A stretch of DNA of 64,000 nt from Parcubacteria group bacterium (GTDB lineage Bacteria > Patescibacteriota > Minisyncoccia > Moranbacterales > UBA9337), in contig JBAZSW010000006.1 in assembly GCA_041662245.1 (NCBI GenBank), positions 10,442-74,441 of the forward strand. Direction: 5' to 3'. Positions 1-46,185 of the stretch are shown here, piece by piece. Position 1 is the first letter of the stretch; each line of letters opens with the position of its first letter. The position numbers were made by a program, and so were the translations under genes. Below the pieces are notes generated by a model that saw only the letters and a list, made by a program, of their open reading frames with translations, searched no databases and had not been told where the DNA came from.

Positions 1-318
1 TAAAGCCAAAACCATCTCGGACAGCAAAAACCCATAAAAACCATAAGATAATGAATACAAAAAAAATCCCAATGTTGAAAAAATCCCTCCCAAAATAATG
101 GAAATCTTTCTCCCATATCTGTCTGCAAAATTACCCGTAGGAAGATCTAAAAAAATACTTGCTACAGAAAATAAAGATTGAAGGATAATTGCTTCCTTAA
201 GATTAACTCCATTTTCGGCAAAAAATAAAATGATAATGGAAATGCTAAACATCCCACTTCTAATTGCTCGAATAATGCAAATCTTTTTAAAGTTTAATTG
301 AGCATCGTGTTGTTTCAT
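1..318 (-). CDS. MFS-type transporter, N-terminal fragment (runs off window start)
   Basis: Minus-strand ORF starting ATG at 316-318, MKQHDAQ... Hydrophobic TM stretches and an MFS motif-A-like 'ADRYGRK' loop. Truncated by the window edge. Confidence 0.4.
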   Translation of the reverse strand, partial: MKQHDAQLNFKKICIIRAIRSGMFSISIIILFFAENGVNLKEAIILQSLFSVASIFLDLPTGNFADRYGRKISIILGGIFSTLGFFLYSLSYGFYGFLLSEMVLAL

Positions 319-18102: not shown

Positions 18103-18207
18103 ATTTTTAACTGATAGCTTTTTAGGTAATAGCTTTTTAGATTAACTACAAGCTAACTTCTACAACCTACAAGCTGATTTAAATTATTTCTTAAATTAAA
18201 TTCCCTG

Positions 18208-18280
18208 AGCCGTTGCGCAGAATCGAACTGCGGACCTTTTCCTTACCATGGAAATGCTCTACCATCTGAGCTACAACGGC
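18208..18280 (-). tRNA. tRNA-Thr (anticodon GGT)
   Basis: Acceptor GCCGTTG/CAACGGC, D-arm GCTC-AGATGGTA-GAGC, anticodon loop ATGGTAA, T-arm CGCAG-TTCGATT-CTGCG. Confidence 0.85.
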
Positions 18281-18429
18281 ACCGTGCGCAAATTCCCAAG
18301 TACCAAAAAACAATTTCCAAACAAACATCAAATCACAATTCACAAAAATAATTCAAATATATGATTTTTCCTTTTTTTAATTTGTCCGTATCTTATTTCT
18401 TGCAATTTATTCCTTTAATTCACTTTTTG

Positions 18430-18512
18430 TGGGCCGGGACGGATTTGAACCGCCGTAGACCGAAGTCGTCAGATTTACAGTCTGATGCAATTGACCGCTC
18501 TGCCACCGACCC
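18430..18512 (-). tRNA. tRNA-Tyr (anticodon GTA), long variable arm
   Basis: Acceptor GGGTCGG/CCGGCCC, anticodon stem TCAGA/TCTGA, loop CTGTAAA, long variable arm, T-loop TTCAAAT. Confidence 0.85.
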
Positions 18513-18517
18513 ACTAT

Positions 18518-18784
18518 TTACTTCTTTATATCTAACTTGCAAAATAATTCTTTAAGTTGTTGCTTTAAAAATCTTTTGCCTTCAGTTGTTTTTAAATATT
18601 TTTCTCTCCTTTCTGCATCTTCTTTTACTGCATAAACTTCATAATGAATAAGTCTAACAGGTAATCTCTTGCTTGTAAACTCTGCTTCACCTCTTTTGTG
18701 TTCAGCTATCCTTCTTTTCAGATCATTAGTAAAGCCAGTATACAATTGATTGTTTTTTAACAATAAAATATAGACATAAAACAT
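18518..18784 (-). CDS. GIY-YIG nuclease domain protein
   Basis: 88 aa. 'YVYILL...YTGFTNDLKRRIAEH' matches the GIY-YIG motif. Sits inside the tRNA cluster. Confidence 0.7.
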   Translation of the reverse strand: MFYVYILLLKNNQLYTGFTNDLKRRIAEHKRGEAEFTSKRLPVRLIHYEVYAVKEDAERREKYLKTTEGKRFLKQQLKELFCKLDIKK

Positions 18785-18820
18785 ATGCAGTCCACTTTAT
18801 TATTATAATATCATTTTGTG

Positions 18821-18893
18821 AGCCACCTGTCGGGCTCGGACCGACGACCTACTGTTTACAAAACAGTTGCTCTACCAACTGAGCTAAGGTGGC
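18821..18893 (-). tRNA. tRNA-Thr (anticodon TGT)
   Basis: Acceptor GCCACCT/AGGTGGC, D-arm GCTC-AGTTGGTA-GAGC, anticodon loop TTTGTAA, T-arm GTCGG-TCCGAGC-CCGAC. Confidence 0.85.
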
Positions 18894-18992
18894 ATAATTA
18901 TTTCTTATATTAAATATTTTAAATAGCATTTTTATCTTCTTCATCTAAGGCTCGCCCTATCATTCGATAGGGCGTCATGTCGGATGACATGG

Positions 18993-19049
18993 CGGACCGA
19001 CGACCTACTGTTTACAAAACAGTTGCTCTACCAACTGAGCTAAGGTGGC
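18993..19049 (-). pseudogene. truncated duplicate of tRNA-Thr(TGT), 5' 57 nt only
   Basis: 57 nt identical to positions 1-57 of the intact tRNA-Thr(TGT) at 18821-18893. The acceptor 3' strand is absent. Followed by two perfect hairpins (18976-18991, 18954-18973). Confidence 0.6.
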
Positions 19050-19136
19050 TTATCTTTAATTTATCTTCAATTCTTTAACCAAATAAAAAACAAACACTTA
19101 TCAATTCTATTCTAAAATTAAATAATTGTAAACAGT

Positions 19137-36303: not shown

Positions 36304-37938
36304 TCAATCCACGAAGCATTCTTTGGGGAGAATATCTTTCCTAATTTCATCTATTTGGGGACTTATTAATTGAACAGACATTGTCCCAAAAGGAATAGCG
36401 CCATTCTCTCCTTTGTTTTTTATTAATAAAACATGATTTTGAAATATGGACTCTTCTAAAGAGCCTTTCTGATAACACCCTTTTCTCCCCTTTTCTATCG
36501 AAAGGATGTAATAAAGTGAACGCACATAACGACTTTCTCCAGAAATAAAAATAAAGCCATTGTCAGAAAAATTATTATCAATTTTTGTAGCAATGGCGCG
36601 AAGTTGCCCCAATGTCACTTTTTCCTCTGTACCAAAAACGAGATCTTTTTCCATTTTATCAGATGTTTTTCCTGCATACGAAAGATTCTTTAAATAAATA
36701 TCTGTAGAATAAAGATTTAAAAAAATAAATACTAATATTATCAAAGAAACCAATGCTTTCGAAAAATTATTCGGAATAATTTGCGCTAACCACTCTAACA
36801 AAAAAGCAACCAAAAGGAAAATCAAAGGAGTAATGCCCAAATAAAATCGAGTAGAAATTTGATAAGCAAGAAGAACAGTAATCAGAAAAAAACTACCAAA
36901 CCATATTCCAAAAAATAATAAAATTTGTTTAGTGATATCTTTTTCTTTTTTCCATTTCCAAAAACCAATCCAAATTAAAAAAGAAAAAAACAAAAGAGAG
37001 ATTACGGTTATAGGAAGATCTGTTCTGCAATCTTTATCGCATTTTAAGGAAAATCCTCGCGTAAGGATGGTATTTGTATTTTGCCCGCCAGTTGCGACTA
37101 ACCAAAAGATTTTTGCTTCTTCCTGATATGCCCGAAAAAACTTTTCATGAATTCCATGATTATTATTTTGTGAACCTTTTTCTTCAACTGTCTTTATAAA
37201 TATTTCGCTCATAGCACCCTTGTTTTTTATCTCATACAAAAAAGTCGGCGCTTGAAAGATAAAGATAACAAAAACGCATATTAAAAATTCTTTCCAGTTC
37301 AACGGTTGAAAAAGTAATAAAAACACAAGTAAACTCCCGAGAAGGCTCAGTGCTACAACAAAATGTAATTGAAATATTATGCCCGTGCATATTGATAAAC
37401 CCACTAAAATCCATACTCGTGATTTATTTTTTCCAATAGAAAGAGCAAAAAATAAGGCCAACAAAGTCGAAAAAAACGGCAAACTATTTGGATTCCAAGC
37501 GAATCTTGAGAACGTAACCAAAAAAAGCGAAACACTTGCCAGACCAGTCACTCCCAAAGCTATCCAATTTGAAACAAACATCCTTAATAGGAAAAAGAGA
37601 ACCGGAATAGTAAGAATACCAAAAAAAAGATCGGGATAGGCAAAACTCTCGGGACTTGCTCCAAAAATTTTACCTGAAAAATATTGAAAATAATAAAAAA
37701 TAGGACCCAGATGAAGCTCACTTCCTCTAGCCTGAGGTCCGCTGAGAGGAAGCTTATCAATGCCCTCGATGATAGCTTTATTGACAATAAAAGAATCTCG
37801 GGATTGATCAGATTGAAAAATCAACCAATCTCCAAAATGGATAGAGCGAAAAAAAATCCCAACACCAAAAATAAATATAAATATTATTACATTTAAAAGA
37901 AATCTCTTATTATTAAAAATAAAATGTTTTTTAAGCAT
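36304..37938 (-). CDS. polytopic membrane glycosyltransferase (GT39/ArnT-PMT-like)
   Basis: 544 aa, more than 10 TM helices, overall GT-C-like architecture. Confidence 0.45.
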   Translation of the reverse strand: MLKKHFIFNNKRFLLNVIIFIFIFGVGIFFRSIHFGDWLIFQSDQSRDSFIVNKAIIEGIDKLPLSGPQARGSELHLGPIFYYFQYFSGKIFGASPESFAYPDLFFGILTIPVLFFLLRMFVSNWIALGVTGLASVSLFLVTFSRFAWNPNSLPFFSTLLALFFALSIGKNKSRVWILVGLSICTGIIFQLHFVVALSLLGSLLVFLLLFQPLNWKEFLICVFVIFIFQAPTFLYEIKNKGAMSEIFIKTVEEKGSQNNNHGIHEKFFRAYQEEAKIFWLVATGGQNTNTILTRGFSLKCDKDCRTDLPITVISLLFFSFLIWIGFWKWKKEKDITKQILLFFGIWFGSFFLITVLLAYQISTRFYLGITPLIFLLVAFLLEWLAQIIPNNFSKALVSLIILVFIFLNLYSTDIYLKNLSYAGKTSDKMEKDLVFGTEEKVTLGQLRAIATKIDNNFSDNGFIFISGESRYVRSLYYILSIEKGRKGCYQKGSLEESIFQNHVLLIKNKGENGAIPFGTMSVQLISPQIDEIRKDILPKECFVD

Positions 37939-41918: not shown

Positions 41919-42077
41919 TTAATTATTTTTAGGAGACTTTTTCTTGTCTTGAGATACTCCTCCTTTATTTGATTCATTTTCAAGACTTCTGAAAAAAAGT
42001 CCTAAAACAACGCCCAAAAACACTATCCCCAACAAAATGAAAGCAACAACATAAAAAAGAATTAAAATTTTTAACAT
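41919..42077 (-). CDS. small membrane protein (52 aa), below the ORF-track threshold
   Basis: MLKILILFYVVAFILLGIVFLGVVLGLFFRSLENESNKGGVSQDKKKSPKNN with SD GAGGTGA upstream. Tentative. Confidence 0.25.
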   Translation of the reverse strand: MLKILILFYVVAFILLGIVFLGVVLGLFFRSLENESNKGGVSQDKKKSPKNN

Positions 42078-42093
42078 CCTTTCACCTCTTTGG

Positions 42094-45000
42094 CTATCTT
42101 TTTATAGTAATGACAATTTTTTCTCCATCAATTACAAATTCTTTTTCTAAATCTACTTTCGGGGATTTATTTTCCCTAGAAAGAACTTCGTCGGCCAATG
42201 TTTCTTTGGCAATAATATTTCTTAAATTTTCATCACCAAAAACCTCATTTGCCCCATCATACCATACCTTTATGCGATTGTCGACTTCATAGCCTGCTTG
42301 CTTACGCATTTCTTGTATAAAACGAATAATTTCTCGCGCTTGTCCTTCGAGTTTTAATTCGGGAGTAATTTCTGTATCTAGCTCAATAGCTAAGACATCA
42401 GCTGTTGGCTTATTTGTTTTGCCAGACAAAACATCCTTCATATTCGTTGTTTTAATAATAGCTTTGTGTTCTACTTTATCACCCTCATTTTTCCCAACAA
42501 CATAAGCTATATTTTTAACATTAACTTCTTCTTTTATTATTTCCAAGAGCTCTTCACTTAATCCACAATTCTTGATTCTTAATTCACCCAAAGGTTGTCT
42601 GACTTTTATCCCGCTCTTGGCTCGAAGCTGTAATCCAATGTTTACAATCTCCCGCACCGCTTGCATATCCAAATTTATTTTTTCATCAATCAAACCCTCA
42701 TCTGCCACCGGAAAATCAGCCAAATGCACCGACAATAAGGCCTCCTCCCCTCCCTGAGGGGAGGATTGAGAAGGGGTGGAAATTAAATTTCTAAATATTT
42801 CTTCACTCACAAACGGTGTAAACGGTGCCATCACCTTGGAAAGCTCTACTAAAACATAATACAAAGTCTGATAGGCTTCATTTTTATCACCATCGTTTTC
42901 ACTTTTCCAAAATCTCTTTCGACTGCGACGAATATACCAGTTGGACAGATTATCGACAAATTTTGGCAAAAGCCTCGCGGCTTTATGCAACTCATAATTT
43001 TCCATATGCAGATTAAATTCTCTAATCAACATATGCAATTCTGAAATAAGCCATTTGTCCAATAGGCCATTTAATTTTTGCGGATTAAAATTTTTATCCG
43101 CTTCAAACTTATCAATCTCAGCGTAAAGCACAAAAAAAGAATAGCTGTTCCAAAGCATTCGCATCATTCCACGAGTGATTTCCCCCACTTCATTCTCGAT
43201 AAAATTCATATTTTGAGCCGCCACCACAGGAGAACTCATCAAATAATAACGCACACTATCTGCTCCGTATTTCTCAAACATTTCCATCGGATCAGGATAA
43301 TTTTTTAGTTTCTTAGCCATTTTCTTTCCGTCCTCGGCTAATACGATTCCATTTACTATCACATTTTTAAAAGCGTTGCTATCTTTTATCCCGCTGGCAA
43401 TTACATGCTGATAATAAAACCAAGCTCTGGTCTGATCTATTCCTTCAGCGATAAAATCAGCTGGAAAACTTTCTTCAAATCTATCTTTATTTTCAAATGG
43501 ATAATGTTTTTGAGCATAAGGCATCGAACCACTGTCAAACCAAGTGTCTAGCACATCTGGCACTCTTTTCATTTCTCCTTTACACTTTTCACACTTGAAA
43601 ATAATTTTATCAACCACATGTTTGTGTAGATCATTAATTTTTTCTCCACTAATTTTTTCAAGTTCTGCGATAGAACCGAAAACTTTTTTTTCTCCACACT
43701 CTTCACATACCCAAATCGGCATTACACTAGCCCAAAAACGTTGACGACTGATAGACCAATCTCTCGCCCCCTCCAACCAATTACCAAAACGTCCTTCTTT
43801 TATATTAGCCGGAGACCAATTGATATTTTTGGCTAGCTTTAACATCTTATCTTTTATTTTCGTTACTGCTACAAACCATGAACTCGTCGCATAATTTATC
43901 AATGGAGTATCACAACGCCAACAATGCGGATAGCTGTGCTCAAATTTTTCTTTATGAAACAAATTTCCATTTTTCGCTAGATATTTAATAATTTCTACGT
44001 CAGTAGCTTGTGGGTTTTCAATCGGCTTTACATTCAACCCTGCTAACTCTCCCATCTCATCCTTAAAACTTCCATCCATTGCCACATGTTGTATAAAGGG
44101 AAGCTTTTTTTCTTTCCCTAATTTCATATCATCTTCACCAAAAGCCGGTGCAATGTGAACCACTCCCGTTCCTTCATCTGTTGTCACAAAATCACCAGCA
44201 TAAATTTTCCAACCATTTTCCCTATTTTCCAAGTTTTCATCTTTACTATAAAAATCAAAAAGCGGTTTGTATTTTTTACCAACTAAATCTTTACCCTTAA
44301 ATTCTTCAATAATTTTATATTCACTATCCTTAAAAACATCTGTCAATCTATCCTTAGCTAAAATAAATCTCACTAGCTTACCCACACCCTCATCTTTCTT
44401 TTCTATTTTTACATAATTAATATTTTCACCAACTGCAAGTGCCACGTTTCCTGGTAAAGTCCAAGGTGTTGTCGTCCAAGCTAAAATAGAGGTCTTGACC
44501 TCCCCTCCTCCCTGAGGAGGGGATTGAGGAGTGGTGTCTTCGCCATTGTCAGAAATAAATTCAAACTCTGCGATCACACTCAAATCCTTCACATCCTTAT
44601 ATCCTTCGGAAACTTCTTGCTGCGAAAGCGTGGTTTCACAACGCGGACAAATATGCATAGAGCGATAATCTTGGTAAATTAAATCCTTATCCCATAATTC
44701 TTTAAAAACCCACCAAACACTCTCCATGTAATCTTTATCCATAGTGCGATAAGCATTTTTCATATCTGCCCAGCGTCCCAACCTTGGAATAAGTCGCTCC
44801 CATTCATCTACATATGCCAAAACTTTGCTACGACAAAGTTCATTAAATTTTTCTACACCCATCACTTCAATATCTTTTTTCTTCTTGCTTCCCAATTCTT
44901 TTTCTACAATGTTTTCAATTGGCAAACCATGACAATCCCAACCCCATTTACGCTGCACATAGAACCCACGCATCGTCCAATATCTCGGCACTACATCTTT

Positions 45001-45192
45001 CAAAAGACTCCCCACGATATGTCCATAATGAGGAGTGCCTGTCGCGAAAGGAGGTCCATCATAAAAAGTATATTCTTTGGCACCTTTGCGATTTTCCATT
45101 GATTTTTCAAATATTTTATTTTCATTCCAAAAATCGATGATATTTTTTTCCATCTCCGGAAACTTTTGATTTGATTCAACTTTCTTAAACAT
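42094..45192 (-). CDS. ileS: isoleucine--tRNA ligase
   Basis: 1032 aa. HIGH-type motif 'PHYGH', KMSKS-like 'KMAKKL', editing domain, zinc knuckles 'CPRCETTL' and 'CWRCDTPL'. Confidence 0.9.
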   Translation of the reverse strand: MFKKVESNQKFPEMEKNIIDFWNENKIFEKSMENRKGAKEYTFYDGPPFATGTPHYGHIVGSLLKDVVPRYWTMRGFYVQRKWGWDCHGLPIENIVEKELGSKKKKDIEVMGVEKFNELCRSKVLAYVDEWERLIPRLGRWADMKNAYRTMDKDYMESVWWVFKELWDKDLIYQDYRSMHICPRCETTLSQQEVSEGYKDVKDLSVIAEFEFISDNGEDTTPQSPPQGGGEVKTSILAWTTTPWTLPGNVALAVGENINYVKIEKKDEGVGKLVRFILAKDRLTDVFKDSEYKIIEEFKGKDLVGKKYKPLFDFYSKDENLENRENGWKIYAGDFVTTDEGTGVVHIAPAFGEDDMKLGKEKKLPFIQHVAMDGSFKDEMGELAGLNVKPIENPQATDVEIIKYLAKNGNLFHKEKFEHSYPHCWRCDTPLINYATSSWFVAVTKIKDKMLKLAKNINWSPANIKEGRFGNWLEGARDWSISRQRFWASVMPIWVCEECGEKKVFGSIAELEKISGEKINDLHKHVVDKIIFKCEKCKGEMKRVPDVLDTWFDSGSMPYAQKHYPFENKDRFEESFPADFIAEGIDQTRAWFYYQHVIASGIKDSNAFKNVIVNGIVLAEDGKKMAKKLKNYPDPMEMFEKYGADSVRYYLMSSPVVAAQNMNFIENEVGEITRGMMRMLWNSYSFFVLYAEIDKFEADKNFNPQKLNGLLDKWLISELHMLIREFNLHMENYELHKAARLLPKFVDNLSNWYIRRSRKRFWKSENDGDKNEAYQTLYYVLVELSKVMAPFTPFVSEEIFRNLISTPSQSSPQGGEEALLSVHLADFPVADEGLIDEKINLDMQAVREIVNIGLQLRAKSGIKVRQPLGELRIKNCGLSEELLEIIKEEVNVKNIAYVVGKNEGDKVEHKAIIKTTNMKDVLSGKTNKPTADVLAIELDTEITPELKLEGQAREIIRFIQEMRKQAGYEVDNRIKVWYDGANEVFGDENLRNIIAKETLADEVLSRENKSPKVDLEKEFVIDGEKIVITIKR

Positions 45193-45248
45193 ATATTTTA
45201 TATATTTTATAAAACTTTAAATTATTAAATTATTAGCTTATTACCTTT

Positions 45249-45286
45249 TTGCATTTTACTGCTACGCTTTGAAGTGTGGAAGTAAA
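45249..45286. repeat. 38-bp perfect direct repeat, copy 1 (ttgcattttactgctacgctttgaagtgtggaagtaaa)
   Basis: Identical to 45850-45887. Lies 57 bp upstream of the ileS start. Confidence 0.8.
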
Positions 45287-45293
45287 TGACTAT

Positions 45294-45839
45294 TTAAAAA
45301 TATTTAGTCATTCTCTTCAATTTCTTATATAGATCTGTTTTTTCTTTCATCTTATTCATTTGCTCCACAACCTTTCTAATTTCCTCCCTTTGCTTTTTGT
45401 TGGAGTTCTTTATAATATTCTCCAAAACAATTTCCGGCCAATAATACATGGGATATTTTTTCTTTATATTGCTAAAATTTCTTTTAAAATAATCGTCTTC
45501 TTTTACAATATCTTTGCCCTTAGTAATCTCCACTGCTTTGCGATAGCCTTCTCCTGAAATATTTAGCCACTCTCGTACTCTAGCAATTGTTCCATCTCCT
45601 ACCTTTAATTCATCTTTTATTTCCTCATAAGAAAACCCATCCAATATCATTTCTGCAATTTTTAATCTTTTGGAAATCATTTTTACTTCATTGACAGTAA
45701 GTAAGTCACTTAAAAAACCTGCTATTTCTTCTGGCTTTTTTATTTTAGACACAGCCAAACATAGCTTATAAAACATCTTTCCCAAGTCTTTCTTATTCAC
45801 ACTCTCTTTTTTACTTGTATTCTCTTTTAATTTATCCAT
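45294..45839 (-). CDS. TrpR-like YerC/YecD family DNA-binding protein with C-terminal extension
   Basis: 'LSDLLTVNEVKMISKRLKIAEMILDGFSYEEIKDELKVGDGTIARV' resembles the YerC/YecD HTH. 181 aa. Confidence 0.45.
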   Translation of the reverse strand: MDKLKENTSKKESVNKKDLGKMFYKLCLAVSKIKKPEEIAGFLSDLLTVNEVKMISKRLKIAEMILDGFSYEEIKDELKVGDGTIARVREWLNISGEGYRKAVEITKGKDIVKEDDYFKRNFSNIKKKYPMYYWPEIVLENIIKNSNKKQREEIRKVVEQMNKMKEKTDLYKKLKRMTKYF

Positions 45840-45849
45840 AAAAATAAAA

Positions 45850-45887
45850 TTGCATTTTACTGCTACGCTTTGAAGTGTGGAAGTAAA
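45850..45887. repeat. 38-bp perfect direct repeat, copy 2
   Basis: Identical to 45249-45286. Lies 11 bp upstream of the YerC-like ORF start. Confidence 0.8.
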
Positions 45888-45899
45888 ATAGTTTTTTTA

Positions 45900-46185
45900 A
45901 TTTTATAATTTTCGTAGCATAAAAAAACAAAAAATCCCTACGCAAAAATTGCATAAGGACGAATAAATCGTGGTACCACCTTAGTTTAGCTTGTAGTTTT
46001 TAGATTTTTAGTTTGTAGTAAAAAATACTACTATCTAAAAAGTTAATCGCTACCAGCTCTTAATTTCAGCTATTACGGGCTTACCCGATAAGGTCTACTC
46101 ATCAAAAAGACTTTCTTCTTATATTCTCTCGCTTATTAGGCGAATTCAAATGGTGATAGCCACCCTACTGGAGAATTTTAATTGA
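45900..46185 (-). promoter_or_regulatory. candidate T-box riboswitch leader (with upstream sigma70-like promoter at 46192-46220)
   Basis: Minus-strand RNA carries 'AAGGUGGUACCACG' (+ 45968-45983), one mismatch from T-box consensus AGGGUGGNACCGCG. Followed by a hairpin (45934-45958) and U-run (45920-45933). Upstream promoter TTGCCA-17-TAATAT. Confidence 0.45.

What the first reader, a model, noticed from the sequence alone, without database searches (positions are those of the whole stretch)
42741..44536. Two copies of a GC-rich palindromic mini-element inserted in-frame inside ileS
In an AT-rich gene, 'cctcctcccctccctgaggggaggattgagaaggggtgg' (42741-42779) and 'cctcccctcctccctgaggaggggattgaggagtggtg' (44499-44536) are near-identical GC-rich elements. 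Both contain a CCTCCC...GGGAGG inverted repeat. Both are in the same orientation and frame. They encode 'TPSQSSPQGGEEA' and 'TTPQSPPQGGGEV' loops in IleS. This looks like an intragenic, in-frame-tolerated repeat or mobile palindromic element rather than native IleS sequence. A weaker relative ('tagcctgaggtccgctgagagg' with cttcctct/agaggaag stem) sits in the GT39-like gene at ~37731-37775, also encoding a 'SGPQARGSE' loop.
Basis: seen in the sequence. Interest (0 to 1): 0.6.

Follow-up and report, generated by a model that had tools for sequence, protein, structure and literature searches.

The report
Hairpin mini-repeats inserted in-frame in IleS
Two 38-base GC-rich hairpin repeats sit in-frame in two flexible surface loops of an essential enzyme (isoleucyl-tRNA synthetase) of a tiny AT-rich "candidate phyla radiation" bacterium, and the same repeat family sits inside many other housekeeping genes of related bacteria, showing how selfish DNA repeats add new loops to proteins.

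Summary
Window 42741-42778 and 44499-44536 hold two copies of a 38-nt GC-rich element on the coding (minus) strand of ileS (42094..45192). Both are in the same frame, and shuffles expect 0 such matches. The organism is a Moranbacteria/Parcubacteria (CPR) bacterium with 32% GC.

Both copies are insertions. The ancestral loops are '[VI]DEPG' (site A) and 'TGEE' (site B). The closest orthologs and the closest solved IleRS lack the inserts. AlphaFold gives pLDDT below 50 for both.

The element belongs to a dispersed family: a 5' tail CACCCCTCCTCAA plus a 10-bp hairpin. About 55 distinct copies turned up in CPR genomes and metagenomes. They lie in-frame in IleS, RecG, UvrB, UvrC, UvrD, LigA, Fpg and TatD, and also in intergenic DNA, alone or as inverted pairs. 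Stem pairs covary without a single mismatch.

The same two IleS loops carry at least six insert families in different lineages. In one genome a related family occupies both loops.

I found no target-site duplication, no Rfam match and no phage copies.

The "weaker relative" in the GT39 gene is a conserved native motif, not an insertion.

Best reading: a REP/RPE-like selfish hairpin repeat, filtered by selection into permissive loops and translated. It is a new variant of a known kind, and I found no description of it for CPR.

The parts
42094..45192 (-). ileS (type-2/eukaryote-like isoleucyl-tRNA synthetase, 1032 aa), the host gene of both element copies
   Evidence: ORF. It is 100% identical to P0001, 'isoleucine--tRNA ligase, Parcubacteria group bacterium'. 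Best solved homologue is 8c8u, E 8e-232.
42741..42778 (-). Element copy at IleS site B (alpha subfamily). Sense sequence: CACCCCTTCTCAATCCTCCCCTCAGGGAGGGGAGGAGG
   Evidence: CM R1 scores it 61.8 bits, E 3e-17. It differs at one base from the copy at site A of the nearest relative, L001.
44499..44536 (-). Element copy at IleS site A (beta-like subfamily). Sense sequence: CACCACTCCTCAATCCCCTCCTCAGGGAGGAGGGGAGG
   Evidence: CM R1 scores it 62 bits, E 3e-17. Subfamily assignment comes from the alignment.
42743..42765 (.). Hairpin of copy B: 10-bp stem TCCTCCCCTC/GAGGGGAGGA with a 3-nt loop
   Evidence: Fold. The palindromic core also matches the CM on the opposite strand.
44501..44523 (.). Hairpin of copy A: 10-bp stem TCCCCTCCTC/GAGGAGGGGA with a 3-nt loop
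   Evidence: Fold. Opposite-strand CM hit.
42733..42783 (-). Expanded loop B of IleS, residues 804-820 'ISTPSQSSPQGGEEALL', which replaces the ancestral 4-residue 'TGEE' between helix 793-804 and the 'SVHL' motif
   Evidence: Ortholog alignment. Empty-site DNA AAT TTA ACG GGA GAG GAA TCT. pLDDT is below 50 at residues 807-817. The solved structure 8c8u has a 14-residue gap here.
44494..44556 (-). Expanded loop A of IleS, residues 213-233 'ISDNGEDTTPQSPPQGGGEVK', which replaces the ancestral 5-residue beta-turn '[VI]DEPG' just before the 'WTTTPW' entry into the CP1 editing domain
   Evidence: Ortholog alignment. pLDDT is below 50 at residues 215-230, between strands 205-212 and 234-240. 8c8u has a 16-residue gap here.

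Best explanation
The two segments are copies of a small, non-autonomous, dispersed hairpin repeat. The unit is 38-42 nt, with a C-rich 5' tail CACCCCTCCTCAA followed by a 10-bp GC-rich hairpin ending in GGAGG. The family is spread through Patescibacteria/CPR genomes.

Shown: the element occurs in many genomes and in many unrelated genes. It is absent from the same loops in the closest IleS orthologs. Its hairpin is maintained by compensatory changes. It lacks target-site duplications. It occurs alone and as inverted pairs in intergenic DNA. Intragenic copies always keep the host frame open.

Inferred: copies arise by a hairpin-dependent process. The likeliest is a trans-acting single-strand (HUH/RAYT- or IS200/IS605-like) enzyme; the alternative is ectopic recombination between copies. 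New copies land more or less anywhere. In these compact genomes, purifying selection keeps only those whose net length is a multiple of three, that contain no stop codon (five of the six frames are open), and that fall in surface loops able to accept a flexible Pro/Ser/Gln/Gly/Glu peptide.

The IleS beta-turn before the editing domain (site A) and the loop after helix 793-804 (site B) are two such permissive loops, so they are hit and turned over repeatedly. The copies are simply translated as disordered loops, and no benefit to IleS is required.
For: - Not ancestral: the basal states '[VI]DEPG' and 'TGEE' dominate the 120-ortholog tree. P0003/P0004 (82% identical) lack the site A insert and carry a different insert at B. 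P0002 shares the A insert but has another sequence at B.
- Dispersed family: 10 genome loci and 52 metagenome loci match a 19-20-base pattern. That gives 55 distinct copies, plus more diverged copies found with CM R1.
- Hosts with copies in frame: IleS, RecG, UvrD, LigA, UvrB, UvrC, Fpg, TatD, a SpoIID-domain protein, Wzy_C and bPH_2 proteins. All three sense frames and the antisense orientation are used.
- Hairpin conservation: the two stem pairs left free by the search pattern read UA45/CG10 and CG38/UA16/UG1, with 0 mismatches in 55 copies. No shuffle reaches the observed covariation score (0/500), and slid registers lose pairing.
- Permissive loops: the AF2 model gives pLDDT below 50 at residues 215-230 and 807-817, flanked by confident secondary structure. 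The solved IleRS 8c8u has gaps at both places. Of 120 orthologs, 63 have an expanded site A and 55 an expanded site B. These involve at least six recurring peptide families, and even a whole NUDIX domain at site A.
- Independent replicate: in L070 a related element (AACCCTCACCCC..CCTCTCCC-NGA-GGGAGAGG) occupies both loops A and B, and there is also an intergenic copy.
- Selection filter rather than replication bias: intragenic copies follow gene sense (about 14 sense to 3 antisense independent events; 20 of 24 on the G-rich strand), whereas intergenic copies show no skew bias (8 of 19). The antisense copies lie in membrane proteins.
- Nucleotide conservation: the element is 84-95% identical between IleS genes whose flanking third-codon positions are only 37-62% identical.
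Against: - No transposase or other mobilising enzyme was identified, and no empty/filled pair from near-identical strains was found, so mobility is inferred from distribution, not observed.
- No target-site duplication was found. This fits REP/IS200-type elements but also fits non-transpositional spread.
- In about 68 kb of this genome the only two copies are both in ileS. In 160 kb around ileS in six relatives, the consensus search with up to 9 substitutions found copies only in ileS. The covariance model later added one more diverged intergenic copy, L001:3592-3629. Copy number per genome may therefore be low, and an ileS-specific process is not excluded.
- About 11 of the contigs recovered carry the element at IleS site B, always in the same frame and position. 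This is an enrichment that a pure 'random insertion plus filter' model explains only by invoking very few tolerated sites.
- The empty site B sequence ACG GGA GAG GAA resembles the element's 3' arm, which hints at homology-guided targeting.
- The element-versus-flank identity comparison is inflated by ascertainment with a fixed pattern.
Confidence: 0.8

Rival explanations
1. The hairpin is a selected mRNA structure. For example, it could sequester an internal Shine-Dalgarno-like GGAGG with a CCUCC anti-SD mimic to tune ribosome pausing at domain boundaries, or it could protect the transcript. On this reading the protein loop is a by-product.
For: The stem is kept by compensatory changes with no mismatch. 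The only non-Watson-Crick pairs are three U·G pairs that work on the sense RNA but would be C·A on the antisense strand. Intragenic copies are strongly sense-biased. The right arm is GGAGG-rich, and some intergenic copies sit 17-60 nt upstream of start codons. Site A lies at the Rossmann/CP1 domain boundary.
Against: The same element occurs in both orientations in intergenic DNA, as inverted pairs, and downstream of stop codons in antisense. Most IleS orthologs function without it. The same loops hold inserts that do not fold. There is no Rfam family. Three U·G pairs are too few to count as evidence, and the subfamilies are inherited, so independent covariation events are few.
Confidence: 0.1
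2. The element is not mobile in this lineage. One copy was acquired once, and the second arose by intragenic ectopic recombination or gene conversion between the two ileS loops. More generally, copies spread only by short-homology recombination and not by a transposase.
For: Both copies in about 68 kb lie in the same gene. The site A copy of the sister genome L001 differs from the window's site B copy at one base in 38. L070 also has the same related element in both loops. There is no target-site duplication. The empty site B resembles the element's 3' arm.
Against: L001 has no family-1 copy at site B to serve as donor. The window's site A copy carries the beta-subfamily signature seen in unrelated genomes, not the alpha sequence of its own site B copy. 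Nearly identical units occur in at least 12 unrelated host genes and in intergenic DNA of several CPR classes.
Confidence: 0.15
3. The segments are native, ancestral IleS loops (low-complexity Pro/Gln/Gly linkers) that look alike by chance or through convergent codon usage.
For: They are in frame, lie in loops, and the gene is intact.
Against: They are absent from the nearest orthologs and from solved structures. Shuffles expect 0 such matches. The same 38-mer is read in other frames in other proteins. Nucleotide conservation far exceeds that of flanking synonymous sites.
Confidence: 0.02
4. The inserts are not translated. They would be bypassed by the ribosome (like the byp elements of Magnusiomyces mitochondria) or removed from the mRNA.
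For: They are GC-rich hairpins of similar size in AT-rich coding sequence, which is the anatomy of byp elements and GC clusters (PMC8811140).
Against: Every intragenic copy examined keeps the host ORF open, with a net length that is a multiple of three (39 nt at site B here), in several hosts and frames. Bypassing would remove that constraint.
Confidence: 0.03

Closest known systems
Rickettsia palindromic elements (RPE)
   Same: A dispersed palindromic repeat that inserts in-frame into unrelated housekeeping ORFs and is translated as an extra peptide at sites compatible with the protein fold (review PMC10969869). Here that means IleS, UvrB, UvrC, UvrD, LigA, RecG, Fpg and TatD, in disordered surface loops.
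   Different: RPEs are about 100-150 bp and occur in Rickettsiales. This unit is 38-42 nt (13-14 codons), is GC-rich in AT-rich CPR genomes, and has an asymmetric tail-plus-hairpin anatomy. About half of the sampled copies are intergenic, often as inverted pairs. No sequence relationship to RPEs was tested.
REP/BIME elements (repetitive extragenic palindromes mobilised by RAYT, Y1/HUH transposases)
   Same: The size (20-40 nt), an imperfect GC-rich hairpin preceded by a conserved 5' motif, the absence of target-site duplication, and the occurrence as inverted pairs or clusters.
   Different: The 5' motif is CACCCC..., not GT[AG]G. Many copies are intragenic and translated, whereas REPs are extragenic by definition. 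No RAYT gene was looked for or found. The comparison of REP features rests on my own knowledge of the REP/RAYT literature.
GC clusters of yeast mitochondrial genomes
   Same: Short GC-rich palindromic clusters in a very AT-rich genome. They are mostly intergenic but also occur as in-frame, strain-polymorphic insertions in a coding gene (var1), and they merge and turn over (PMC8811140). Compare the turnover and adjacent inserts at IleS site B.
   Different: Those are mitochondrial and flanked by AG/TAG terminal repeats regarded as target-site duplications. No flanking repeat was detected here, and the setting is a bacterial chromosome.
Coxiella burnetii QMITE and other intragenic MITEs (ERIC, Correia)
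   Same: Small non-autonomous repeats that can create in-frame fusions with host ORFs (PMC10969869; PMC5896051 listed).
   Different: MITEs have terminal inverted repeats and target-site duplications and are usually longer than 100 bp. Neither a target-site duplication nor terminal repeats of a single unit are seen here.
byp translational-bypass elements (Magnusiomyces capitatus mitochondria)
   Same: GC-rich hairpin inserts of 27-55 nt inside AT-rich protein-coding genes (PMC8811140).
   Different: byp elements are skipped by the ribosome and need not preserve the frame. All copies here preserve it.

Membership tests
Rickettsia palindromic elements (RPE) | Dispersed, hairpin-forming repeat present in many copies and genomes | tested here: met
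   55 distinct copies in CPR genomes and metagenomes. Hairpin shown.
Rickettsia palindromic elements (RPE) | In-frame insertion into unrelated ORFs with the reading frame preserved | tested here: met
   IleS, RecG, UvrD, LigA, UvrB, UvrC, Fpg, TatD and others; ORFs stay open through every copy.
Rickettsia palindromic elements (RPE) | Element length about 100-150 bp, encoding a conserved peptide of about 30-50 aa | tested here: not met
   The unit is 38-42 nt, or 13-14 codons. The encoded peptide differs with frame.
Rickettsia palindromic elements (RPE) | Sequence homology to RPE-1..10 and occurrence in Rickettsiales | not tested
   The host is Moranbacteria/Parcubacteria. No RPE sequences were compared.
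REP/BIME (RAYT-associated) | 20-40 nt imperfect palindrome | tested here: met
   38 nt with a 10-bp stem.
REP/BIME (RAYT-associated) | Conserved 5' GT[AG]G head next to the hairpin | tested here: not met
   The conserved 5' tail is C[AT]CC..C.CTCAATCC.
REP/BIME (RAYT-associated) | Extragenic location | tested here: not met
   About half of the sampled copies lie well inside ORFs of 300 aa or more.
REP/BIME (RAYT-associated) | Clusters of copies in alternating orientation | tested here: met
   Inverted pairs with 19-51 nt spacers in L014, L019 (two pairs), L023, L040 and L049. L013 has four copies in 2.1 kb.
REP/BIME (RAYT-associated) | Cognate RAYT (Y1 HUH transposase) gene in the genome | not tested
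MITE | Target-site duplication flanking the element | tested here: not met
   The longest shared flank k-mer averages 2.74, against 2.35 +/- 0.30 in the shuffled-partner control.
MITE | Terminal inverted repeats | tested here: inconclusive
   A single unit is asymmetric (tail plus internal hairpin). Inverted dimers of about 100 bp would have inverted ends.
Yeast mitochondrial GC clusters | GC-rich palindromic cluster in an AT-rich genome, with in-frame polymorphic insertion in coding sequence | tested here: met
   The element is 66% GC in a 32% GC window. Presence and absence among IleS orthologs is shown.
Yeast mitochondrial GC clusters | AG/TAG terminal repeats; fungal mitochondrial genome | tested here: not met
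   No flanking repeats. The setting is a bacterial CPR chromosome.
byp translational-bypass elements | The insert is not decoded, so frame and length are unconstrained | tested here: not met
   All intragenic copies keep the ORF open, with net lengths that are multiples of three.

The most novel reading that the evidence does not exclude
CPR bacteria harbour a superfamily of 38-42-nt 'coding-compatible' hairpin elements. Family 1 is described here; family 2 encodes PHPNPLPEGEG; others may exist. On this reading the elements actively target, and rapidly turn over at, a few specific loops of essential enzymes, with a preference for DNA-repair proteins and aminoacyl-tRNA synthetases. Targeting would use a hairpin- or homology-guided insertion mechanism that has not been described. 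The recurrent hits at identical codons would then reflect targeting and not just selection, and the elements would be a major source of the lineage-specific loops typical of CPR proteins.
Probability: 0.2. Interest if true: 0.8.

Novelty: new variant of a known kind. Interest (0 to 1): 0.6.

Why it matters
In-frame colonisation of essential genes by palindromic repeats is a classic oddity of Rickettsia and of yeast mitochondria. This finding shows the same phenomenon, with a much shorter REP-sized element, in the Candidate Phyla Radiation, a huge and largely uncultured branch of bacteria with tiny, densely coding genomes.

It provides a concrete and datable source for the many lineage-specific loop insertions seen in CPR proteins. 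It also provides a natural experiment on which loops of IleS, UvrB and LigA tolerate 13-20 extra residues, because two IleS loops were hit again and again by different families.

There are practical consequences too. Such elements can confuse alignment, phylogeny, binning and protein-family models for CPR genomes.

If the recurrent hits reflect targeting and not selection, the family would point to a new insertion mechanism. Six literature searches of the held library found no description of such elements in CPR/Patescibacteria.

Tried and rejected
- The 'weaker relative' at 37731-37775 was rejected. The peptide PLSGPQARGSELHLGP is a conserved, length-invariant motif of the GT39/PMT_2 protein in 55 orthologs.
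- More copies in the window: a covariance-model scan with filters off found none. There were also none in 4.4 kb of extra sequence from the same organism.
- Other insert families in other window genes: a six-frame motif scan found nothing convincing.
- Target-site duplication: no signal above the shuffled-partner control.
- Known RNA family: no Rfam hit at E <= 1 over 42000-45300.
- Phage carriage: the pattern has 0 matches in IMG/VR contigs.
- Replication-strand bias: intergenic copies show none (8 of 19), so the bias of intragenic copies is coding-related.
- 'All insert families at the hot spots are hairpins': rejected. The family-3, family-6 and L001 site B inserts do not fold better than shuffles.
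- RNA folding z-scores of the two copies alone are unimpressive (-0.4 to -1.9), because shuffles of such C/G-block sequences also pair. The covariation evidence is what supports the hairpin.
- One genome-scan hit (Cryobacterium, L007) and one metagenome hit (L031) are GC-rich chance matches and were excluded.
- P0114 DNA could not be fetched.
- Literature searches for CPR plus palindromic/MITE/REP/RAYT terms found nothing relevant.
Full report
**Observation**

The window is 32% GC. On its minus strand lies a 1032-aa ileS ORF, 42094..45192, identical to a protein annotated as isoleucine--tRNA ligase of a Parcubacteria-group MAG. Its nearest relatives are all Candidatus Moranbacteria/Moraniibacteriota.

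The two quoted sequences are present at the stated coordinates. A 22-nt degenerate core matches only there, with 0.00 matches expected in shuffles. A covariance model of the family built later finds only these two copies in the whole window: 62 bits, E about 3e-17, with the next best hit at E 1.5.

Both copies lie on the coding strand and are read in the same frame relative to the element. They encode T-P-S-Q-S-S-P-Q-G-G-E-E and T-T-P-Q-S-P-P-Q-G-G-G-E. As single-stranded DNA each forms a perfect 10-bp hairpin with a 3-nt loop.

**Insertions, not native sequence**

I aligned 120 IleS orthologs, which are 90%-identity cluster representatives at 60-82% identity to the query.

- At site A, the turn just before the invariant WTTTPW, the common state is '[VI]DEPG' (5 residues).
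- At site B, between 'EEIYKNL' and 'SVHL', it is 'TGEE' (4 residues).
- In the window, site A is 21 residues and site B is 17.

Among the closest relatives:

- P0003 and P0004 (82% identical) have the basal site A and an unrelated 12-residue insert at B.
- P0002 (82%) shares the site A element but has a different 33-residue sequence at B.
- P0007 and P0009 (77-79%) are basal at both sites.

The closest solved structure (8c8u, E 8e-232) aligns with a 16-residue gap at A and a 14-residue gap at B.

An AlphaFold2 model of the window protein (65-sequence alignment, mean pLDDT 76) puts both inserts in segments with pLDDT below 50. Residues 215-230 lie between strands 205-212 and 234-240, and residues 807-817 follow helix 793-804. 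Both segments are therefore lineage-specific additions to surface loops.

**A dispersed element family**

Aligning the DNA of family members from six ileS loci gave the following consensus: (CT)C CACCCCTCCTCAATCCTCCCCTC-loop-GAGGGGAGGAGG.

- A 20-specified-base pattern found 10 loci among 185,579 species-representative genomes. They were Moraniibacteriota, Nomurabacteria, Vogelbacteria, another Patescibacteria MAG, one Nitrospinaceae MAG, and one GC-rich chance hit.
- A 19-base pattern found 52 metagenome loci.
- There were no matches in viral contigs, and no Rfam family matches.
- After removing duplicates and two chance hits, 55 distinct copies remain.

About half of the copies lie well inside long ORFs that stay open through the element. 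Pfam assignments of these hosts:

- Sense orientation: IleS (at least 11 contigs, always site B, always the same frame), RecG, UvrD, LigA, UvrB, UvrC, Fpg, TatD, and a SpoIID-domain protein.
- Antisense orientation: two Wzy_C membrane proteins and a bPH_2 protein.

All three sense frames are used. They encode TPPQSSPQAGEE, HPSSILPSGRGGG or PPLNPPLGQGRR. The conserved entity is therefore the DNA, not a peptide.

The remaining copies are intergenic or sit at gene ends. The covariance model also picks up more diverged copies, often as inverted pairs with the 5' tails facing each other across 19-51 nt. These occur in L014, L019 (two pairs), L023, L040 and L049. Clusters also occur, with four copies in L013, and there is an intergenic copy in the window's sister genome at L001:3592-3629.

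**Anatomy and conservation**

The unit is asymmetric: a C-rich tail (C[AT]CC..C.CTCAA) followed by a 10-bp stem (TCCTCCCCTC/GAGGGGAGGA in the main subfamily) and a terminal GG.

The search pattern left both partners free at two stem pairs. There the 55 copies read UA45/CG10 and CG38/UA16/UG1, with no mismatch at all. No shuffle of 500 reaches the observed covariation score, and sliding the register drops pairing from 95% to about 70-85%.

The variation falls into subfamilies:

- alpha: CCTCCCC/GGGGAGG
- beta: CCCCTCC/GGAGGGG, with tail CACCAC
- gamma and delta: CCTCTCC/GGAGAGG

The window's site B copy is alpha, and its site A copy carries the beta signature. The orthologous site A copy in L001 is alpha and differs from the window's site B copy at a single base. 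The 'compensatory' differences between the two window copies therefore reflect subfamily identity, perhaps through conversion from another copy, and not private drift.

Flanks show no target-site duplication: the mean longest shared k-mer is 2.74, against 2.35 +/- 0.30 in controls.

Between IleS genes whose flanking third-codon positions are 37-62% identical, the element is 84-95% identical. This comparison is biased upward by the way copies were ascertained.

**Hot spots**

Of the 120 orthologs, 63 have an expanded site A, 55 an expanded site B, 30 have both and 32 have neither. The inserted peptides fall into recurring families scattered over the tree:

- Family 1: TPPQSSPQ[GA]GEE. It is at B in P0001, P0005, P0087, P0103, P0104, P0114 and P0117, in at least five separate clades, and at A in P0001 and P0002.
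- Family 2: PHPNPLPEGEG.
- SSQSTVHGKE.
- GVETQNLA.
- CHSGLDPES...LKQVQDD.
- STNYESDTNVRITN.
- Others.

Within the window's own clade (over 77% identity), site B carries family 1, family 3, families 3+4, or a composite. Turnover there is therefore faster than protein divergence. Adjacent and nested inserts occur (P0008, P0099), and a whole NUDIX domain sits at site A in P0089 and P0114.

The DNA of P0057 (L070) shows a related GC-rich hairpin element, AACCCTCACCCC(T)A(A/G)C-CCTCTCCC-NGA-GGGAGAGG-GGGAT. It occupies both loop A and loop B, and a third copy lies in the next intergenic region. The family-1 model detects these copies weakly, at E 3e-4 to 0.04. The 'two copies in the same two loops' pattern is thus replicated with a different family.

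Not every insert family is a hairpin. The family-3, decayed family-6 and L001 site B inserts fold no better than shuffles.

**Mechanism**

What is shown:

- The repeat is dispersed and its hairpin is constrained.
- It has no target-site duplication.
- It is present in some lineages and absent in their closest relatives.
- It is found inside ORFs only in a form that keeps the frame.
- In IleS, it sits in disordered loops.

What is inferred:

- The element propagates by a hairpin-dependent route. A trans-acting single-strand HUH/RAYT-like enzyme is the best analogy for a tail-plus-hairpin unit without target-site duplication that forms inverted pairs. Recombination between copies is the alternative.
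- Selection then keeps only insertions that are harmless.

Several observations support a protein-level filter over a replication-linked bias.

- Intragenic copies follow the gene's sense (about 14 independent sense events to 3 antisense; 20 of 24 on the G-rich strand), whereas intergenic copies show no skew preference (8 of 19).
- The few antisense copies, which encode LLPxLRGGLRRG-type peptides, are in membrane proteins.
- Five of the six frames are free of stop codons.

The empty site B sequence, ACG GGA GAG GAA, resembles the element's 3' arm. IleS site B is also strongly over-represented among the hits. Some homology-guided targeting therefore cannot be excluded, and this is the main open point.

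**The third sequence**

The 'weaker relative' at 37731-37775 lies in a PMT_2/GT39 protein. The peptide PL[LI]GPQARGSxLHLGP is conserved, without length variation, in 55 orthologs down to about 38% identity. It is a native motif, and its only resemblance to the element is the heptamer CCTGAGG.

**Comparison with known systems**

Functionally this is closest to Rickettsia palindromic elements, which insert in-frame into housekeeping ORFs at structurally tolerated sites (PMC10969869). It is also close to the GC clusters of yeast mitochondria, which are short GC-rich palindromes in AT-rich DNA with in-frame polymorphic insertions in var1 (PMC8811140).

In size and anatomy it is closest to REP/BIME elements. 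It fails defining features of each:

- It is far shorter than RPEs.
- It lacks the GT[AG]G head and the extragenic habit of REPs.
- It lacks the terminal repeats of GC clusters and the terminal inverted repeats and target-site duplication of MITEs.
- Unlike byp elements, it always preserves the frame.

I therefore rate it a new variant of a known kind. Six searches of the held literature found no description of such elements in CPR/Patescibacteria. Absence from that library is not proof of novelty.

**Verdict**

- Confidence is about 0.8 that these are copies of a dispersed selfish hairpin repeat retained in permissive loops and translated.
- The mobilising mechanism is unknown.
- Interest is 0.6.

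Noticed in passing
window 45249-45306 and 45850-45907: A 38-nt identical block (minus strand TTTACTTCCACACTTCAAAGCGTAGCAGTAAAATGCAA, with TTCCAC-17nt-TAAAAT promoter-like spacing) lies about 20 nt upstream of the TrpR-like ORF (45294..45839) and about 65 nt upstream of ileS. It looks like a duplicated promoter/operator. The trpR-like-ileS neighbourhood is conserved in L001 and L003.
   Followed up: partly
L070:10658, 12452, 13437 (genome of P0057): A related hairpin element (AACCCTCACCCC..CCTCTCCC-NGA-GGGAGAGG-GGGAT, peptide P[SH]P..PLPEGEGD) occupies both IleS loops A and B, plus the intergenic region after the next small ORF. This is the same double hit as in the window, made by another family.
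   Followed up: partly
IleS orthologs P0089, P0114, P0036, P0037, P0032, P0083, P0108, P0060, P0078, P0080, P0094: Whole domains are inserted into Moranbacteria IleS. NUDIX sits at site A and at a second site in CP1. A histidine-phosphatase (PF00300) domain sits near core position 495-503. A block of about 190 aa that looks like an alpha/beta-hydrolase sits in the editing domain.
   Followed up: no
L006, L013, L026/L062, L027, L040, L056, L057: Seven of about 13 distinct host proteins of the family-1 element are DNA repair or DNA-processing enzymes (RecG, UvrD, LigA, UvrB, UvrC, Fpg, TatD). This looks like an enrichment for such small genomes and is unexplained.
   Followed up: no
IleS orthologs P0101, P0099, P0110, P0039, P0054, P0097, P0100, P0102: Further recurrent mini-insert peptides appear at several other IleS positions (core positions 38, 249, 308, 748, 876), such as 'ACNASHSDAGR', 'ARNATHSVAGG' and 'LPTGQAG'/'GGQAG'. 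This suggests additional repeat families and additional permissive loops.
   Followed up: no
L025:3904-3941 and L038:2058-2095: Two of the rare antisense intragenic copies lie in Wzy_C (O-antigen-ligase-like) membrane proteins from different contigs. They encode LLPxLRGGLRRG-type and PPPLxEGRIEEG-type loops, possibly at an orthologous site.
   Followed up: no
L015, L035, L048, L063, L067: The gamma subfamily (CTCCTCACCTCAATCCTCTCCTC...GAGGAGAGGAGG) occurs in a Nitrospinaceae MAG and in contigs of 41-59% GC. The family may therefore extend beyond CPR, or these contigs may be mis-binned.
   Followed up: no
window 18200-19080: A tRNA gene cluster contains two nearly identical neighbouring tRNA-like repeats (86 nt, 87% identical, 156 nt apart).
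   Followed up: no
window 37700-37775: An 8-bp inverted repeat cttcctct/agaggaag brackets the codons of the conserved GPQARGSE motif of the GT39-like gene. The protein motif is native; whether the DNA/RNA stem means anything was not examined.
   Followed up: partly
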